Source: a virus
Strand: one strand, 5' to 3'
IMG/VR virus record: IMGVR_UViG_3300037069_000805
Location: 32,001-96,000 of that record
Length of the DNA stretch: 64,000 bases
The translations under genes were made by a program, and so were the position numbers. The notes beneath the pieces were generated by a model. The model made no database searches. It was not told the origin of the DNA and was given only the letters and a program-made list of their open reading frames with translations. Below, piece after piece: positions 26,969 to 33,710 of this stretch. Numbering within the stretch: position 1 is the stretch's first letter; each line of letters opens with the position of its first letter.

Positions 26969-28666
26969 TTAATATCCTTTATTATTTTTACGTAAATAAC
27001 CTCCATACATATTACTTGTAATAGAAGTTCCTACAAATTTATTTGGATCACCAAAAGATGGTGTACTATTTTTTTCAGCTAGTACTTGTTCATATGTTTT
27101 TTTAACACCAGTTTTCTTATTTACCATATACTTTCCATCCCACGAATATCCTAAGGCTTCAGCAATTTGATTTTTTTCAACTTCTTCTTTACCAATAGCT
27201 CCTAAATCAGTACCTATACTACCAAGTAATTTAGATTTTTGAGTATCATAATTAGCTGTATTTCTATCATTAATATCTAATTCAGCATTAGATTGACTCA
27301 TATTAGCTTGATTAACTCCTAAATCAAATTGTTGTTTATATTGTTTTTGTGCATTATTTAATTCGTTTGCTTTTAGATATGCATCTGACATACCTTTAGT
27401 ATAATTAAGATTAGCTCCTAATATATTACTTCTTAAAGCTCCTTCTGAACCATTAGTAGCATTTGTAAGTGCATTAATAGTATTATCATTTTCATTAGAT
27501 ACTGTATTTTGTAAATTTCTTTCATCAACATATGAAGGATTATATGTATTAGATAATCTATCTAATCTTTCAGCTTTTGGTTTTTTTAATTGAGATAACT
27601 GAAATGCATTCATAGCTACTGGAGCATATTTTAAAAACTTACCACCATTTTTATCTAAATAATCACCAATACCTGAATTAGAATTAACTGGTAAAGTAGA
27701 TTTAACTAGTGAATTAGATGGTTGTAATAGTGATGTTGTAGGTTGTAAATTATTACTAACTAAACCTTGCTTTAAACCTGTTGTATCTATTGAAGATACT
27801 GGATTTCTTGCCGATGTAAAAGCATATTGTCCATTTGGAAAACCTAAATTACTAGAATCATATATTCCTTTAGGAAAAGTATCTTCTTCTAATGGACCTC
27901 CATATGCAAAATCATTACTAAATTGATTACTAGCTTTAAAAGCTTGTCTATTTGCTTCACGTTTAGCTTCTTTTTTAGCACTAATTCCAGTTATAAATCC
28001 ACTTGCTAATTTACCTACTTGACTACCAATCATTCCACCAATAGGACCACCAATAGCAGTTCCTGCCAATGTTGTACCTGTTTCAATTCCAGCACTTAAT
28101 GCACCATCATTATCTCCAGCTATAAGTGAATTTATTCCAGCCATAGCAGGTTGTATTGCAGCAGTATATCCACTACCTTCAGCACCTTCTGCATTATCTA
28201 AATCACCACCTAAAAACATTTGTTTTTGTTGTGGTTGTACAAATTGTTCCATACCTTCTGGTATATCTCCACTATCTTGATTAGAAACTTGTTGAGAATT
28301 AGCTTGCATAGATTGATTAATTTGTTCTGCTTCAGCTTGTCTTTTAGCTTTTTCAGCTTCTTGAGCTTGTGTTAATCTACCTAATAGAGTCTTTCTAGTT
28401 TCCATTGAAGGTTTATCATTCCTATCTTTAAATTTCTTATCTATTATTTTTGAAGCATCTGCATAAGTTTTACCTTTAACATAAGATGGTAAGTTCATAT
28501 CTTTAGCAGTATTTTCATCAATAGATAATCTATTTGAATAAATATAATTACCAATCTTGGATTCACCTTGTTCTACTGTATTATTTTTACCCTGTGGTAT
28601 TCCGCCTCTTGGGTTTTCACTATGTGTTTCACCTACATTAAATTCCGTTAGTTTATTATTCTCCAT
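26969..28666 (-). CDS. putative virion cargo/internal protein
   Basis: GETHSENPRGG...VEQGE N-terminus, glycine-zipper segment AGTAIGGPIGGMIG, Gln/Asn-rich coils; likely start MENNKL at 28666. Confidence 0.65.
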   Translation of the reverse strand: MENNKLTEFNVGETHSENPRGGIPQGKNNTVEQGESKIGNYIYSNRLSIDENTAKDMNLPSYVKGKTYADASKIIDKKFKDRNDKPSMETRKTLLGRLTQAQEAEKAKRQAEAEQINQSMQANSQQVSNQDSGDIPEGMEQFVQPQQKQMFLGGDLDNAEGAEGSGYTAAIQPAMAGINSLIAGDNDGALSAGIETGTTLAGTAIGGPIGGMIGSQVGKLASGFITGISAKKEAKREANRQAFKASNQFSNDFAYGGPLEEDTFPKGIYDSSNLGFPNGQYAFTSARNPVSSIDTTGLKQGLVSNNLQPTTSLLQPSNSLVKSTLPVNSNSGIGDYLDKNGGKFLKYAPVAMNAFQLSQLKKPKAERLDRLSNTYNPSYVDERNLQNTVSNENDNTINALTNATNGSEGALRSNILGANLNYTKGMSDAYLKANELNNAQKQYKQQFDLGVNQANMSQSNAELDINDRNTANYDTQKSKLLGSIGTDLGAIGKEEVEKNQIAEALGYSWDGKYMVNKKTGVKKTYEQVLAEKNSTPSFGDPNKFVGTSITSNMYGGYLRKNNKGY

Positions 28667-29186
28667 AATATTTATAAGTTGTTTTATTATTCCTACTACC
28701 ATTCAACCAACGTGACATGTATTTAGGATTTAAGTTATTTTCTTCACAACATTCTGTTAGTGAATTATATATTTTATTTGTTAAGGTACAAATTACTTTT
28801 TTAGAATTATGATGTTTTTCTCCTTTAATTCCATACATAGGATTATTTTTACCAGTATTTCTAATTTTAGAATTAAGCAAGTACTCTTTAGTATATATTC
28901 TTGGTAAAATATTAGTTTCTACTAAAACACAATTTAATCCATTTTCAGATAATACATCATAATAATCTTGCCAATATCTTTCTCTAATATTTAGTTCTTC
29001 AAATTTACATTCTTCAATAAATTCTATGATATGATTTTCAAAACTATATTTATCAAAACTATTAAATAATCTAACTTGTTTATTATGACATTTATATTTA
29101 TAATAAGATATTCTTTTCTTGTAATTTCTTGTCTGCCCAATATATATTCTACCTTTTGGATTTGTTATTTTATATATTCCAATCAT
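28656..29186 (-). CDS. GIY-YIG homing endonuclease
   Basis: GIYKITNP..IYIGQT, ERYWQ, NGLNC, GKNNPMYG. Confidence 0.9.
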   Translation of the reverse strand: MIGIYKITNPKGRIYIGQTRNYKKRISYYKYKCHNKQVRLFNSFDKYSFENHIIEFIEECKFEELNIRERYWQDYYDVLSENGLNCVLVETNILPRIYTKEYLLNSKIRNTGKNNPMYGIKGEKHHNSKKVICTLTNKIYNSLTECCEENNLNPKYMSRWLNGSRNNKTTYKYYGE

Positions 29187-29198
29187 ATTTAATATTAT

Positions 29199-29226
29199 AA
29201 AAAAAAGGAGAGCGTTAACTCTCCTT
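29199..29226 (-). terminator. intrinsic terminator of the 98-aa moron gene
   Basis: Minus strand AAGGAGAG-TTAACG-CTCTCCTT followed by a T-run. Confidence 0.85.
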
Positions 29227-29234
29227 GATTGGTT

Positions 29235-29531
29235 TTACTTAAATGTTAAATTCTTAAACGTCTTTCCACTGTCGGTAACAATGTAGTAATAATTAGATTT
29301 TGTTAAACAAATCAATTTTTTACCTCCTTCTGTAGCGACAATACAATGAATATTTGGATTAATGTTTTCCAAAGTAAACATCTTATCGTCAGGCTTGTTG
29401 TAAAAGGCATTGTAAGCCGTTTCAAATTTTGAAGGTGAATTTTCTCTTTCAATAATTGAAAAAGATTCTCCTAATCCCTGATTATAGACCACGTTATCTT
29501 GGTCTATGCTAATCTCTGTTAATGTGTACAT
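29235..29531 (-). CDS. hypothetical protein (moron with own promoter and terminator)
   Basis: 98 aa, C-terminal YYIVTDSGKTFKNL; visibly more C/G-ending codons than its neighbours. Confidence 0.75.
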   Translation of the reverse strand: MYTLTEISIDQDNVVYNQGLGESFSIIERENSPSKFETAYNAFYNKPDDKMFTLENINPNIHCIVATEGGKKLICLTKSNYYYIVTDSGKTFKNLTFK

Positions 29532-29551
29532 AATTTGTGTGTATTTATATA

Positions 29552-29586
29552 TTGCCTACTCTTTAGCTTTTCGGCTTCCGCTATGA
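29552..29586 (-). ncRNA. candidate structured leader RNA (pseudoknot with E-loop-like motif)
   Basis: GC-rich island UCAUAGCGGAAGCCGAAAAGCUAAAGAGUAGGCAA in an AU-rich 5'UTR; UAGC/GCUA and GCC/GGC pairings are interleaved. Confidence 0.45.
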
Positions 29587-29603
29587 TTTTAAATATGTCA
29601 ATA

Positions 29604-29635
29604 CAAATATAAGGAATTTTTATTAGAATTCCAAA
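29604..29635 (-). promoter_or_regulatory. Bacteroidota housekeeping-type promoter
   Basis: TTTG-N20-TATATTTG matches the -33 TTTG / -7 TAnnTTTG consensus. Confidence 0.8.
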
Positions 29636-29666: not shown

Positions 29667-32600
29667 TTATGTAGTATAATAAATAGATGGTGAATAGAAA
29701 ATTAATTTATAGTTATTTTCATTTTGAAACTGAAGTTTCAATTTAATATATGGAGCACGAATTCTATTTCTATTTTGACGAGGAATCAACACATTCCAGT
29801 CACGAAATTTTCTTCTTGCATTTTCATTTCTTCCAACAACTATTGGAACCAGTCCACTATCTTGATAATCATTATAAGCTTGTATTTTATTTAAAGTTAT
29901 TTCAGGTTGATCTACATTATTTAATGTAACATCAGATTTAAAATTAATATTATCAAATACACAATCTAAATTTGGTTCTGGGTTAACATTAAATGTAATA
30001 TAAGAAGGAAATATTTCACCATAAAATGAATTATAATCTCCAGCATATTGTTTCCATATTTGAGATATATCAGGTGAAGTAGTAATAAAATTATCACCTT
30101 TACTCATATACATAGACGGAATATAATCATAGAAACTAATAAAGTTCTGCTTATTCTCATTATAAGATAATGTAAATGATTGATCATTTTGATGTAATGT
30201 TATAAATATATCATTATTAATATAATCAAAAGATACTACCACACCTTGTTTAATTAACGGATTATCTATTTTAAGCTCTTGTAAGGAACTATTATTATAA
30301 AAGTATGTATGCATACCTTTTGTATCAGATTGTCCTTCTATTTGTCCTCTAAATGAGTTAAATGATCTATTTAAAGCATCATAGTAATATATAGCAGATG
30401 ATGAACTTGCAATAGCCCATTTATTTATACTTCCAGATTCAGTAGTAATATAATTATAATCTTGTAATACTGAACCTAAACCTAATTCTAATGATAATCC
30501 ATCACTAGCTTGTGTTTGAACTCTTGGTAATATAGATATAAATGCAATACCTGTATCTTGAAATGAAAATATATTATCTTTGAAACTATATAATGAATTT
30601 ATTGGTCCATATTCACCTTTTAAATGTAATATATTATTTACTTGAATATCAGTCCAGCTATCTATAATCTCACCAGGAACTTTAATTTTAGTTGATATTA
30701 TAGTAGTGTCAAAATTATTTGTTTTTTTAAATTTATAATCAACATCTCTAGTTTTAATTAAATTAGATTGTTGAGAATAAACTGTATTATATTTTTGATA
30801 TTCATTATATTGTGGTTGAAATCTATTATCCCAAGGAGTAAGGCTTAAATCATTTCTGTTTTGTAAATCTATAGATGTTTCCAATCTTACAGATACTATT
30901 TCAGTATGTTGTTGTGAATTTTTACTATATACTTCAGTTTCGGTTTTAACTAATTTTGTAAACTGAAACTTTTGAACAAATGTATCTCCTGGATGTTTAC
31001 AGTAATAAATATTTGTATTTATTTCTTGGTATTCACCTATTTCAATATAATTAGTTCTTTTCTTAGATTCATAACTATTACCTTTGTATAAATTACCAAC
31101 ATATATTAATATATTAGGTATTTTAAATTCTCCAATAACAGCGATATCATCATCCATTCCTAATGATGCATGTATATCTTCAAGTTTAGTTCTATCTTCT
31201 GTTGCAAGTGAAGAATCACCTAATGCAAATGTAATATTTTTAGAACCAAAAGTATTTACTGAATATAAATATCTACCACCATCAGCAGTTAATTGTTCTA
31301 ATGAATTATAAAATACTAGTTCAGAATTATTTGCATATATAGTTCTACCTTGACCTTTTTCAACAAGTAATGGTGTACTATAAGTATCATATGTAGTTAT
31401 AATAGATGGATTAAATGTTCCCATATAACTTCTATACGTTTGCACAAATTCCATATTATCATCACCATGTGCTACTTCAAAAAATCCTTTATCAACTAAA
31501 TCCATCCAATTTCCTATAGTTTCTTGTAGATTTACTCCAACAGCTTTAACATCATATGGTGATATTGCACCTATAACTTTAGTTTCACTAATTACTTGTT
31601 TAGTTTCAATTTTTCTAAGTTGTCCCCAAAAATAATTATTATCATTTTTAGCTCCACCTATCACATTAAGTTGTACATTTGACATATTTTGAATTAAATC
31701 AAATGTTGCTTCTGGAGAATACATTTGCATAAGTTGATTAAACTGAAATGTTTCAGATAATCTATCATCTGCATTTGAAGTATTAAATACTTCTGTACCT
31801 GCACCATATGTAAATGGTGAAATTGGATTAGGTTTTAAATTTGGATGTATAGTAGGATCTTGACTATCAACTCTATCATATGTTGACATTCTATATTGAG
31901 GGCATAAATAATTATCATATCTACGCATTAATGATGGTAATTTATCTCCAGCATTTGCAAAATCTATTGCTTCAGGACTAAATGGTGCTGTATTAACATT
32001 TCCATTTTTATTATTAGAAATCATTCCATTAATTAATCCTTGACATATAATAGATCTATCTAACAGAGTTCTTTCACCTATAATTAATTTATATCCAACT
32101 GGTTTTAAAAATTCATCATAATTTCCATTATCATCTAAAAAATTAGATTGATCATTCAACCATATATAAAATTCTGCTTTTAATGTAATTTCTAAAGATG
32201 CAAACTTATCATTTAAATTTATTCCATCATCTGTAGCTACTATAAAATCAGCAATCCATTTAGGTAATGCATCAGCGCCATATTTATTATAAAATTTAAT
32301 ACCTAATCTATATAATTCATTATCTTTAAAAAACCTACCATTTATGTCTTCATTAGTAAATCCATTAATACCTACTTCACTTCTTACAATTTTATATTTT
32401 AAATACATACCCTCACCTCCTAAAATGGAAGAATTATATTGGTATTTATTTATCATATAATTTTTGTTTATAGATGAAAATTTTTCAGGAACTGTATACG
32501 TATTATATACAGTAATAGAAGGTTCGTTACTAATTGGATTACCAGATCCATCATCTATTAAAGAATTATATATTTCTGTAGTTAAAGCATTCATTGGAAA

Positions 32601-33710
32601 CGAATAAGCTCTTGTATCTAAATTAATTTCAAGATTCTTTTCTTTATAATTAGCTAAGAACATAATATTTTTCTTAGTATTTATATGTTTTGGTATAATT
32701 ATATCCGAACCTAAAAATAAAAATTCTTCTAAAGAAACTGTTTCTATAATATTACCATCATCATAATAAGTTACTTCTGTTAATCCAACTATATTTTTAT
32801 CTAATATAAGACTAACAGATGGTATTTGATTAAAAGACGTATATTTTATAGCATACAATCTAATATTAGTATAATCATTATCTAATACATCTATATTAAT
32901 AACAGGTAATGTTTTTACTATTTCATTAATATCTCCTCCACCTTCTATATTATTATCTAATGATATTAATTCTGATAATGGACTTATTTTTGTTTGAGAA
33001 CCATTTAACTTGTAAAGATTATAAGCATATTGAATCATTCCTGCAGTATGTATACCACCTGACAATATATCTATAATTTTAGGTTGTGTAAATGTATAAT
33101 CTCCAACTATATTTAATATATTAGAACTTACATCAATTAGTTCTTCTAAATCACCATTTAATATAGAATGTTCTAAATTTAAAAATCTCATTTGATTCTT
33201 ACCATCTACCCAATATATTTTATCAATAATATCATTTTCAAAATTATTAATACACTGAATTGGATTAGTTATATTAAATTGTAAATCTCTCATATATAAT
33301 AATGTTATATCATATGTAATATCATTTACTTTCCAGACACAATCAAATCCATTATTATCAGTTGTAAGTAAAATTAAACTATCTCTTGAAAATGTATGTC
33401 CTATAATTAATTGATCACCTGATGTTCTATATGTAGTACCACTTATAAGATATATATCATTTATTTCATTAGTTGTATAAATTAATTTTTTATTATTATA
33501 AAGTATTTTTTTATTAACACCATCAATTATTGGTGTTGGTACTGTTAAAATTAAACTATTACCTTTTTCATTAGTTACAGCTCCAGTACTTTGTGTATCT
33601 GTAGCAATTACTCTAATATTTCTAGCATTAAAATAAAATTTATTACTATAATTTGACTTGTTAATGTCTTGGACAAGACCTTCAAAACCTTGTTGTACAT
33701 TTTTATTCAT
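29667..33710 (-). CDS. tail stabilization / nozzle (muzzle) protein
   Basis: 1347 aa, beta-rich; YWVDGKNQMRFLN, GEIIDSW, RRKFRDW; crAss gene order after the tubular protein. Confidence 0.8.
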   Translation of the reverse strand: MNKNVQQGFEGLVQDINKSNYSNKFYFNARNIRVIATDTQSTGAVTNEKGNSLILTVPTPIIDGVNKKILYNNKKLIYTTNEINDIYLISGTTYRTSGDQLIIGHTFSRDSLILLTTDNNGFDCVWKVNDITYDITLLYMRDLQFNITNPIQCINNFENDIIDKIYWVDGKNQMRFLNLEHSILNGDLEELIDVSSNILNIVGDYTFTQPKIIDILSGGIHTAGMIQYAYNLYKLNGSQTKISPLSELISLDNNIEGGGDINEIVKTLPVINIDVLDNDYTNIRLYAIKYTSFNQIPSVSLILDKNIVGLTEVTYYDDGNIIETVSLEEFLFLGSDIIIPKHINTKKNIMFLANYKEKNLEINLDTRAYSFPMNALTTEIYNSLIDDGSGNPISNEPSITVYNTYTVPEKFSSINKNYMINKYQYNSSILGGEGMYLKYKIVRSEVGINGFTNEDINGRFFKDNELYRLGIKFYNKYGADALPKWIADFIVATDDGINLNDKFASLEITLKAEFYIWLNDQSNFLDDNGNYDEFLKPVGYKLIIGERTLLDRSIICQGLINGMISNNKNGNVNTAPFSPEAIDFANAGDKLPSLMRRYDNYLCPQYRMSTYDRVDSQDPTIHPNLKPNPISPFTYGAGTEVFNTSNADDRLSETFQFNQLMQMYSPEATFDLIQNMSNVQLNVIGGAKNDNNYFWGQLRKIETKQVISETKVIGAISPYDVKAVGVNLQETIGNWMDLVDKGFFEVAHGDDNMEFVQTYRSYMGTFNPSIITTYDTYSTPLLVEKGQGRTIYANNSELVFYNSLEQLTADGGRYLYSVNTFGSKNITFALGDSSLATEDRTKLEDIHASLGMDDDIAVIGEFKIPNILIYVGNLYKGNSYESKKRTNYIEIGEYQEINTNIYYCKHPGDTFVQKFQFTKLVKTETEVYSKNSQQHTEIVSVRLETSIDLQNRNDLSLTPWDNRFQPQYNEYQKYNTVYSQQSNLIKTRDVDYKFKKTNNFDTTIISTKIKVPGEIIDSWTDIQVNNILHLKGEYGPINSLYSFKDNIFSFQDTGIAFISILPRVQTQASDGLSLELGLGSVLQDYNYITTESGSINKWAIASSSSAIYYYDALNRSFNSFRGQIEGQSDTKGMHTYFYNNSSLQELKIDNPLIKQGVVVSFDYINNDIFITLHQNDQSFTLSYNENKQNFISFYDYIPSMYMSKGDNFITTSPDISQIWKQYAGDYNSFYGEIFPSYITFNVNPEPNLDCVFDNINFKSDVTLNNVDQPEITLNKIQAYNDYQDSGLVPIVVGRNENARRKFRDWNVLIPRQNRNRIRAPYIKLKLQFQNENNYKLIFYSPSIYYTT

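What the first reader, a model, noticed from the sequence alone, without database searches (positions are those of the whole stretch)
29552..29586. Candidate novel RNA motif: compact pseudoknot with a loop-E/sarcin-ricin-like element in the moron leader
Seen (minus strand): UCA-UAGC-GGAA-GCC-GAAAA-GCUA-AAG-AGUA-GGC-AA, a GC-rich island in an AU-rich UTR ending about 20 nt before the AUG. UAGC/GCUA and GCC/GGC are interleaved (H-type pseudoknot topology). The GCC/GGC stem is bordered by GAA on one strand and AGUA on the other, the same adjacency as the AGUA/GAA loop-E motif. I cannot assign it to a riboswitch or ribozyme class I know. The stems are short, so a single sequence is weak evidence. 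It could be a riboswitch, a protein-binding operator or an antitoxin RNA.
Basis: partly seen in the sequence, partly recalled or inferred. Interest (0 to 1): 0.7.

Follow-up and report, generated by a model that had tools for sequence, protein, structure and literature searches.

The report
Known DUF805b leader pseudoknot in phage
The small knotted RNA in front of the 98-codon phage gene is real and conserved, but it is an ordinary member of an RNA leader family already catalogued in Rfam (DUF805b), whose function is still unknown.

Summary
It is not a new motif. Rfam family RF02914 (DUF805b RNA) matches 29584-29553(-) at 47.1 bits, above the 35.6 cut-off (E 2.9e-10).

The interleaved-helix reading is correct. 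Across 47 leaders from viral contigs, both helices show compensatory changes. The four ORF98 homologue leaders I could recover carry the same element, three of them with compensating changes.

In phages the element sits 18-24 nt before start codons of unrelated genes. It often lies directly after an upstream stop codon, so it is tied to the start codon and not to the transcript 5' end.

Here it heads a foreign cassette: a promoter-like site, the leader, ORF98 (GC3 0.30 against 0.09 for the phage) and a terminator. A GIY-YIG endonuclease gene follows. The cassette lies between the muzzle and cargo genes of a crAss-like phage related to Cellulophaga phage phi14:2, which has neither the cassette nor the RNA.

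The most likely role, which is inferred, is a fixed-distance structural element at the 5' edge of the ribosome landing zone in Bacteroidia, whose ribosomes ignore Shine-Dalgarno sequences. A metabolite riboswitch is unlikely.

This scan has found the same family before on other DNA (19 notes in at least 18 genomes). Interest is low.

The parts
29553..29584 (-). DUF805b RNA motif (Rfam RF02914), full-length match to model positions 1-35
   Evidence: 47.1 bits against a gathering score of 35.6, E 2.9e-10. It is the only copy in the 104,240-bp virus record.
29580..29583 (-). Stem 1, 5' arm UAGC
   Evidence: Pairs with 29564-29567. Homologue leaders carry UAGA/UCUA (L118) and AUAG/CUAU (L067). The three inner pairs were counted on 47 leaders: every one shows changes on both sides, and 43 of those leaders were chosen for this pairing.
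29576..29579 (-). Joining segment L1, GGAA
   Evidence: Conserved in the Rfam consensus. Natural variants seen are GAAA (L118), GUAA (L005 second copy) and GAAU (L053 second copy).
29573..29575 (-). Pseudoknot helix, 5' strand GCC (inside the stem 1 loop)
   Evidence: Pairs with 29554-29556. Covarying pairs seen elsewhere: CCC/GGG (L121), GGC/GCC, GUC/GAC, UCC/GGA, UUC/GAA, ACC/GGU, plus G-U wobbles.
29568..29572 (-). Joining segment L2, GAAAA; its GAA lies directly 3' of GCC
   Evidence: Kept in all 6 leaders not selected by my search pattern: L118, L119, L121, the window, and the second copies in L005 and L053.
29564..29567 (-). Stem 1, 3' arm GCUA
   Evidence: See the 5' arm entry.
29557..29563 (-). 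Joining segment L3, AAGAGUA; its AGUA lies directly 5' of GGC
   Evidence: GAGUA is kept in all 6 leaders not selected by the pattern. This segment is three positions shorter than the Rfam consensus (alignment).
29554..29556 (-). Pseudoknot helix, 3' strand GGC
   Evidence: helix 2 is 95.7% paired. The only unpaired cells come from two probable chance hits (L055, L092).
29532..29553 (-). 22-nt A/U-rich spacer between the pseudoknot and the AUG, with no Shine-Dalgarno sequence
   Evidence: The family-wide spacer is 18-24 nt in 27 of 42 true copies, against 4 of 61 control pattern hits (Fisher p 2.7e-10). Spacer composition is A 58, U 33, C 7, G 2 %.
29235..29531 (-). ORF98, a small protein of unknown function; the gene served by the leader
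   Evidence: No Pfam or PHROG hit. Seven homologues at 51-60% identity. AlphaFold2 pLDDT 92.3. No PDB fold match. BFVD matches are only to uncharacterised phage proteins. GC3 is 0.303 against a phage mean of 0.091, z = 5.2.
29604..29635 (-). Promoter-like site of Bacteroidota type: TTTG (29635-29632), 20 nt, TATATTTG (29611-29604)
   Evidence: Read. TAnnTTTG is no more frequent in the window than chance (115 matches against 121 expected), so this is plausible but not shown.
29205..29226 (-). Intrinsic terminator after ORF98 (9-bp stem, T run)
   Evidence: 2 terminator-like sites found, 0.1 expected in shuffles.
28656..29186 (-). GIY-YIG homing endonuclease gene, the second half of the inserted segment
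   Evidence: PF01541 E 3.5e-6; phrog_314 E 2.5e-19.
29667..33710 (-). crAss-like muzzle protein gene, upstream neighbour
   Evidence: PF25731 E 5e-192.
26969..28702 (-). crAss-like cargo protein 1 gene, downstream neighbour
   Evidence: PF25725 E 2e-19. In phage phi14:2 the muzzle and cargo homologues are adjacent, 77 nt apart.

Best explanation
The element is a member of the catalogued DUF805b RNA family (Rfam RF02914). It is a 32-nt pseudoknot: a 4-bp hairpin whose loop triplet GCC pairs with a downstream GGC, joined by conserved purine-rich segments. It arrived in this crAss-like phage with a horizontally acquired expression cassette made of a promoter-like site, the leader, ORF98 and a terminator. 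It acts in cis on the mRNA. Its most likely role is at translation initiation. It is a rigid structure held about 20 nt upstream of the AUG, at the 5' edge of the unstructured A-rich zone where ribosomes of Bacteroidia (which do not use Shine-Dalgarno pairing) load. There it would help or position 30S binding, acting as a portable start-site module and not as a sensor. Family membership, RNA-level structure and fixed spacing are shown here. The ribosome-related mechanism is inferred.
For: Membership: 47.1 bits against a 35.6 cut-off. The leaders of ORF98 homologues score 40.3-47.1 bits.

RNA structure: in pattern hits, stem 1 and the pseudoknot co-occur. With stem 1 of 3 bp or more, 47 have the pseudoknot paired and 2 do not. 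With stem 1 of 2 bp or fewer, 5 are paired and 62 are not. Overall 97.9% of cells are paired against 70% in shuffles, and the covariation score is 0.756 against 0.196, reached by 0 of 500 shuffles. Sliding the partners destroys the pairing. G-U wobbles occur on the gene strand only.

Homologue test: L121 has CCC/GGG, L118 has UAGA/UCUA, and L067 has AUAG/CUAU with GCC/GGU. L119 has an identical motif although its protein is only 42% identical.

Link to the start codon: an ORF start lies 18-24 nt downstream in 27 of 42 copies against 4 of 61 controls, p 2.7e-10. 13 of 49 copies begin no more than 15 nt after the stop of an upstream same-strand ORF, and only 5 of 51 have a -7 box nearby.

Unrelated cargo genes follow the element: HU-like, DNA methylases, ParB-like, a protease, crAss001_48-like, and many of unknown function.

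Host setting: 4 of 49 genes in the window have even an SD-like tetramer. Bacteroidia ribosomes ignore SD sequences (abstracts of PMC7797042 and PMC9976891). In F. johnsoniae a low-structure zone spans -20 to +20 around start codons (PMC6847099).
Against: No experiment exists for any DUF805 or DUF805b RNA in the searched literature. The spacer composition is the same as that of ordinary gene starts in this phage, so nothing marks these starts as special apart from the pseudoknot. About a third of true copies sit at other distances (36-37 nt with an extra hairpin, or about 90-120 nt). Those need another explanation. Near-invariant joining segments would also suit a ligand or protein pocket. My sample of copies was drawn with a pattern that fixed GGAA, GAAAA and AGAGUAG, so it under-samples variation in those segments.
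Confidence: 0.5

Rival explanations
1. Operator for an RNA-binding protein: a host global regulator, a ribosomal protein such as bS1 or bS21, or a phage factor binds the knot and represses or activates the downstream cistron.
For: The purine-rich segments are highly conserved while the helices are free to vary. This is typical of a sequence-specific protein site presented on a scaffold. The fixed distance to the AUG suits steric control of 30S entry. The element occurs in both host and phage genes according to earlier notes.
Against: No candidate protein is linked to the element. The downstream genes are unrelated, so autoregulation by the encoded protein is excluded as a general rule. ORF98 has no recognisable RNA-binding fold.
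Confidence: 0.2
2. A very small riboswitch, similar in size and topology to preQ1-I: a ligand stabilises the pseudoknot and modulates initiation.
For: It is a 32-nt pseudoknot with near-invariant unpaired purines. Rfam types it as Cis-reg.
Against: The downstream genes have no common metabolic theme and include phage structural and DNA-binding genes. No alternative pairing or terminator lies between the knot and the AUG in the main class. The knot does not overlap the start region. There is a single copy in this phage, in front of a gene of unknown function.
Confidence: 0.12
3. An RNA processing or stability element: a nuclease site or a protective structure that separates cistrons or stabilises the downstream message.
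For: It often sits directly after an upstream stop codon inside operons. It is a compact stable fold.
Against: The tight 18-24 nt spacing to the AUG is not required for a stability element. It is not tied to transcript 5' ends.
Confidence: 0.1
4. A small self-cleaving ribozyme.
For: It is a pseudoknotted, highly conserved small RNA found in phages, and no function is assigned.
Against: There is no match to any ribozyme family in Rfam, even at E up to 10. At 32 nt with 7 Watson-Crick pairs it is below the size of the known classes. Its position relative to start codons is not explained by cleavage.
Confidence: 0.03
5. A DNA-level signal (promoter, recombination or homing site) and not an RNA.
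For: It lies in an inserted cassette next to a homing endonuclease gene.
Against: Both helices show compensatory changes and G-U wobbles, which would be A-C mismatches on the other strand. It is always in gene orientation at a fixed distance from an AUG. Homologue cassettes lie in unrelated genomic contexts.
Confidence: 0.02

Closest known systems
DUF805b RNA motif, Rfam RF02914 (clan CL00115). By my own recollection it comes from the comparative survey of Weinberg et al. 2017; that paper's main text does not mention it and its supplements are not held.
   Same: Full-length match above the curated cut-off. Same hairpin with a GGAAGCCGAAAA loop and the same AGAGUAGGC tail. Same leader position upstream of a start codon.
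   Different: The joining segment after stem 1 is 3 positions shorter than the consensus. The downstream gene is not a DUF805 protein. The host is a crAss-like phage.
DUF805 RNA motif, Rfam RF03081 (same clan, 68 positions)
   Same: Shares the core, so a weak overlapping match exists at 29549-29622(-) in window coordinates.
   Different: It scores only 24.6 bits against a 51.1 cut-off. The extra elements of the longer motif are absent.
preQ1-I riboswitch (from my own knowledge: a 34-nt H-type pseudoknot)
   Same: Similar size and pseudoknot topology. Cis-acting in a leader.
   Different: The preQ1-I knot covers the ribosome-binding site and precedes queuosine-pathway genes. Here the knot ends 22 nt before the AUG and the cargo genes are unrelated. 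No Rfam match.
Structured leaders that dock on the 30S platform, such as the E. coli rpsO pseudoknot (from my own knowledge)
   Same: A pseudoknot just upstream of the initiation region that could occupy the platform side of the mRNA exit.
   Different: The rpsO knot is an operator for its own product, S15, and includes the start region. DUF805b is generic, smaller and lies outside the start region.
Sarcin-ricin / loop-E (bulged-G) module, AGUA opposite GAA (from my own knowledge)
   Same: AGUA lies immediately 5' of one helix strand and GAA immediately 3' of the partner strand. This is the polarity the module needs. Both are conserved.
   Different: Only sequence adjacency is shown. There is no second flanking helix of the usual kind and no structural data.

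Membership tests
Rfam RF02914 DUF805b RNA | Covariance-model score at or above the curated gathering score (35.6 bits) | tested here: met
   47.1 bits, E 2.9e-10, model positions 1-35 of 35.
Rfam RF02914 DUF805b RNA | Short hairpin with a conserved 12-nt loop GGAAgCCGAAAA | tested here: met
   UAGC / GGAAGCCGAAAA / GCUA. The stem covaries in relatives.
Rfam RF02914 DUF805b RNA | Conserved 3' tail AGAGUAGGc, whose GGc can pair with the loop gCC | tested here: met
   Present at 29562-29554. The pairing is supported by 15 double-sided changes and 95.7% pairing in 47 leaders.
Rfam RF02914 DUF805b RNA | Lies upstream of a gene for a DUF805 protein (the association that gave the name) | tested here: not met
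   ORF98 has no Pfam hit. None of 33 downstream phage proteins matched DUF805. This is a naming association and not part of the model. By my recollection the family description also includes other genes.
Rfam RF02914 DUF805b RNA | Occurs in Bacteroidota or their viruses | tested here: inconclusive
   The host is not known. The closest cultured phage infects Cellulophaga baltica (major capsid protein 62.7% identical). One ORF98 homologue is labelled Flavobacterium sp.. Gene starts lack SD sequences.
Rfam RF03081 DUF805 RNA | Score at or above 51.1 bits | tested here: not met
   24.6 bits.
H-type pseudoknot | Two interleaved helices, each supported by covariation | tested here: met
   and the homologue leaders.
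Loop-E / sarcin-ricin module | AGUA opposite GAA in antiparallel strands next to a helix | tested here: met
   5'-AGUA-GGC-3' and 5'-GCC-GAA-3'. Sequence level only.
Loop-E / sarcin-ricin module | Bulged-G geometry with non-canonical pairs | not testable with these tools
   Needs chemical probing or a solved structure.
Metabolite riboswitch | Downstream genes share a pathway or ligand theme | tested here: not met
   HU-like, methylases, ParB-like, a protease, and proteins of unknown function.
Metabolite riboswitch | Expression platform (terminator or start-site sequestering helix) coupled to the aptamer | tested here: not met
   The main-class spacers are 18-24 nt, A/U-rich and variable, with no conserved alternative pairing.
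Metabolite riboswitch | Ligand binding | not testable with these tools
   Needs in-line probing.
Type III antitoxin RNA (ToxI-like) | Tandem array of repeats upstream of a toxin gene | tested here: not met
   Single copy in the genome. The leader sequence shows no repeats.

The most novel reading that the evidence does not exclude
DUF805b is a portable substitute for the Shine-Dalgarno signal. It would be a small pseudoknot that docks on the platform of the SD-blind Bacteroidia 30S subunit (or on bS1). This lets morons, cassettes and internal cistrons bring their own ribosome entry site, which would explain why it travels with foreign genes such as ORF98.
Probability: 0.3. Interest if true: 0.7.

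Novelty: already known. Interest (0 to 1): 0.18.

Why it matters
As a discovery it adds little, because the motif is already in Rfam and this scan has met it many times. Two things are useful. First, it is a clean worked example that the pseudoknot and the 20-nt spacing hold in phages. Second, it is a compact natural test case: a promoter-like site, the leader, a small gene and a terminator within about 440 bp. If the family proves to be a ribosome entry signal for Bacteroidia, which lack Shine-Dalgarno recognition, it would answer part of the open question of how start sites are chosen in that phylum. It would also give an expression part for Bacteroidota genetics.

Tried and rejected
- A nested MFE fold of 29520-29610(-) gave z = 0.01. 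This is uninformative because the fold is a pseudoknot.
- blastn of the cassette and tblastn of ORF98 against 50,697 phage records found no match.
- The search for related loci with the single protein in viral contigs found nothing. With the alignment it found 2 viral loci, 1 metagenome locus, and 1 weak genome hit in an Acutalibacteraceae MAG, which I did not use.
Host-chromosome distribution was therefore not tested here.
- The Weinberg 2017 main text has no mention of DUF805 and its supplements are not held. No paper on the function of DUF805 or DUF805b RNAs was found.
- The promoter reading could not be strengthened. TAnnTTTG is at chance frequency in this AT-rich window.
- Foldseek of the ORF98 model against the PDB gave nothing at E <= 0.001.
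- I rejected a 5'-end stabiliser role because many copies lie inside operons.
- I rejected 16S anti-SD pairing of the conserved segments after inspection. They have no run complementary to CCUCC; this is my own reading.

Full report
**Observation.** The next ORF starts at 29531, so 22 nt lie between the last paired C (29554) and the AUG. The two proposed helices are interleaved. On one sequence this is weak: the stems are 4 bp and 3 bp, and a nested fold of the region is no better than shuffled sequence (z = 0.01).

**Identity.** A scan of the whole window against Rfam returns a single match above a curated threshold. It is RF02914, DUF805b RNA, at 29584-29553(-), with 47.1 bits against a gathering score of 35.6 and E 2.9e-10, covering the full model. 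The local sensitive scan gives the same result and nothing else of note.
- The longer clan partner, DUF805 (RF03081), scores only 24.6 bits against 51.1.
- The element is the only copy in its genome, a complete 104,240-bp IMG/VR virus record.
That result was obtained.

**Is the pseudoknot real?** The Rfam model can encode only the hairpin, so I tested the second helix independently.

A pattern fixing only GGAA, GAAAA and AGAGUAG, with the loop triplet and two of the three partner bases left free, returned 116 stretches from viral contigs.
- Among hits with stem 1 of at least 3 contiguous pairs, 47 have the second helix fully paired and 2 do not.
- Among hits with stem 1 of 2 pairs or fewer, 5 are paired and 62 are not. 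The latter set is an internal chance control.

On an alignment of 47 leaders (A2):
- 97.9% of cells pair, against 70.0% in shuffles.
- The covariation score is 0.756 against 0.196, reached by 0 of 500 shuffles.
- Sliding the partners by one to three columns drops pairing to 10-47%.
- The pseudoknot helix is 95.7% paired. Its pair types include GC, UA, CG and GU at the first position, and CG, UA and GC at the second. The only unpaired cells come from two probable chance hits.
- Stem 1 pairing was a selection criterion for 43 of the rows. Its covariation is real, but its 100% pairing is by construction.
- G-U wobbles on the gene strand would be A-C mismatches on the other strand, so the constraint acts on RNA.

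ORF98 has seven database homologues at 51-60% identity. Alignment-based scans and the pattern scan still gave four loci with homologues: L118, L119, L121 and L067. All four carry the element at the same place.
- L119 has an identical 32-nt motif although its protein is only 42% identical.
- L121 has CCC/GGG in place of GCC/GGC.
- L118 has UAGA/UCUA in stem 1 and GAAA in the first joining segment.
- L067 has AUAG/CUAU and GCC/GGU.
- The three loci that are held as records pass the Rfam cut-off at 40.3-47.1 bits.
- GAAAA and GAGUA are kept in every leader that my pattern did not select, including two extra copies found with my own covariance model.

**Position relative to genes.**
- Of 42 distinct true copies, 27 have an ATG opening an ORF of at least 45 codons 18-24 nt after the knot (mode 20). 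Only 4 of 61 control hits do (Fisher p 2.7e-10).
- A minority lie at 36-37 nt with an extra small hairpin, or at about 90-120 nt.
- The spacers are A 58, U 33, C 7, G 2 % and have no Shine-Dalgarno sequence. This matches ordinary gene starts in this phage, where 4 of 49 genes have even an SD-like tetramer.
- Only 5 of 51 copies have a TAnnTTTG box 5-30 nt upstream.
- 13 of 49 copies begin no more than 15 nt after the stop codon of an upstream same-strand ORF.
- The constant relation is therefore to the start codon, not to the transcript 5' end.

**Downstream genes.** Downstream proteins in phages are heterogeneous: an HU-like DNA-binding protein, DNA methylases, ParB-like proteins, a protease, a crAss001_48-like protein and many of unknown function. 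None is a DUF805 protein.

**Setting in this genome.** The window is the structural block of a crAss-like phage.
- The upstream neighbour is the muzzle protein (PF25731, E 5e-192). The downstream neighbour is cargo protein 1 (PF25725).
- The closest cultured relative is Cellulophaga phage phi14:2 (major capsid protein 62.7% identical).
- In phi14:2 the muzzle and cargo homologues are adjacent with a 77-nt gap. That phage has no DUF805b match above the cut-off.
- Here about 960 bp are inserted. The insert holds a TTTG-N20-TATATTTG site, the leader, ORF98, a strong terminator at 29226-29205 and a GIY-YIG homing endonuclease gene.
- ORF98 has GC3 of 0.303 against 0.091 +/- 0.041 for 49 phage genes, z = 5.2, so it is foreign.
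- The promoter reading is plausible but not shown, because the -7 box motif is at chance frequency in this AT-rich DNA.
- ORF98 folds confidently (pLDDT 92.3). It matches nothing in the PDB and only uncharacterised small phage proteins in BFVD.
- Its homologues sit in unrelated phage contexts, so the leader and the gene move together as a unit.

**Mechanism.** What is shown is an RNA-level, strand-specific pseudoknot with near-invariant joining segments. It is held about 20 nt before start codons of unrelated genes, often inside operons. What is inferred is a role in translation initiation.
- Bacteroidia ribosomes do not recognise Shine-Dalgarno sequences because the anti-SD is sequestered on the platform (abstracts of PMC7797042 and PMC9976891).
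- In F. johnsoniae, initiation is tuned by low secondary structure from -20 to +20 and by upstream adenines (PMC6847099).
- The knot ends at -19 to -25, at the 5' edge of that zone.
- I therefore favour a fixed-distance structural element that helps or positions 30S loading, at about 45-50%.
- A protein operator is the main rival, at about 20%.
- A metabolite riboswitch is disfavoured by the unrelated cargo genes and the lack of an expression platform, at about 12%.
- A processing or stability element (10%), a ribozyme (3%) and a DNA-level site (2%) follow.

**Loop-E idea.** AGUA lies directly 5' of GGC, and GAA (the start of GAAAA) lies directly 3' of GCC. This is the antiparallel arrangement of a bulged-G module stacked on the second helix, and both are conserved. 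It is a reasonable structural hypothesis, but only adjacency is shown here.

**Novelty.** The element is already catalogued. Earlier notes of this scan reached the same reading on other genomes: DUF805/DUF805b, a pseudoknot about 20 nt before starts of unrelated genes in Bacteroidota and their phages. My tests here agree with those notes independently. No publication on its function was found.

Noticed in passing
window 29235-29531 (-): ORF98 has GC3 of 0.303 against a phage mean of 0.091 (z = 5.2). It gives a confident predicted fold (pLDDT 92.3) with no PDB match, and it resembles only uncharacterised small proteins of many phages in BFVD. It is a foreign moron gene of unknown function.
   Followed up: partly
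window 28656-29186 (-) and 26969-28702 (-): The GIY-YIG homing endonuclease ORF overlaps the annotated start of the cargo protein 1 ORF by 47 nt. The Pfam match to the cargo domain begins only at residue 16, so the true cargo start may lie further in.
   Followed up: no
L029:6813-6848(-), and the same in L038, L043, L087, L093, L100: In large contigs (about 68-98 kb) from one sample, a DUF805b copy is followed by two hairpins. The second is terminator-like. No ORF of 45 codons or more follows within about 116 nt. This could be a small RNA or an attenuator variant of the leader.
   Followed up: no
L011, L072, L104, L112 (coordinates): A subgroup with GUC/GAC or GCU/GGC knots carries an extra small hairpin in the spacer, which puts the AUG 36-37 nt after the knot. 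The downstream proteins are homologous to each other.
   Followed up: no
L005:7150-7185(+) and L005:7564-7597(+): Two DUF805b copies lie about 420 nt apart in front of consecutive genes of one phage contig. The first has ACC/GGU in the knot and GUAA as the first joining segment.
   Followed up: partly
L101:2141-2174(-) and L053:899-934(-): Leaders of unrelated genes share the AUAUAAAUA(C/U)A(C/U)A-type spacer seen before ORF98. This suggests the knot plus spacer recombines as a module with different ORFs.
   Followed up: no
window, 49 gene starts: Only 4 of 49 genes have an SD-like tetramer within -20 to -4. Upstream regions are 55% A. This is typical of Bacteroidia-type initiation and supports a Flavobacteriia-like host.
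   Followed up: partly
window 29612-29631 (-): A weak hairpin (GGAAUU / AAUUCC) lies between the muzzle stop codon and the -7-like box, inside the 20-nt promoter spacer. It was not flagged as a terminator by the scan.
   Followed up: no
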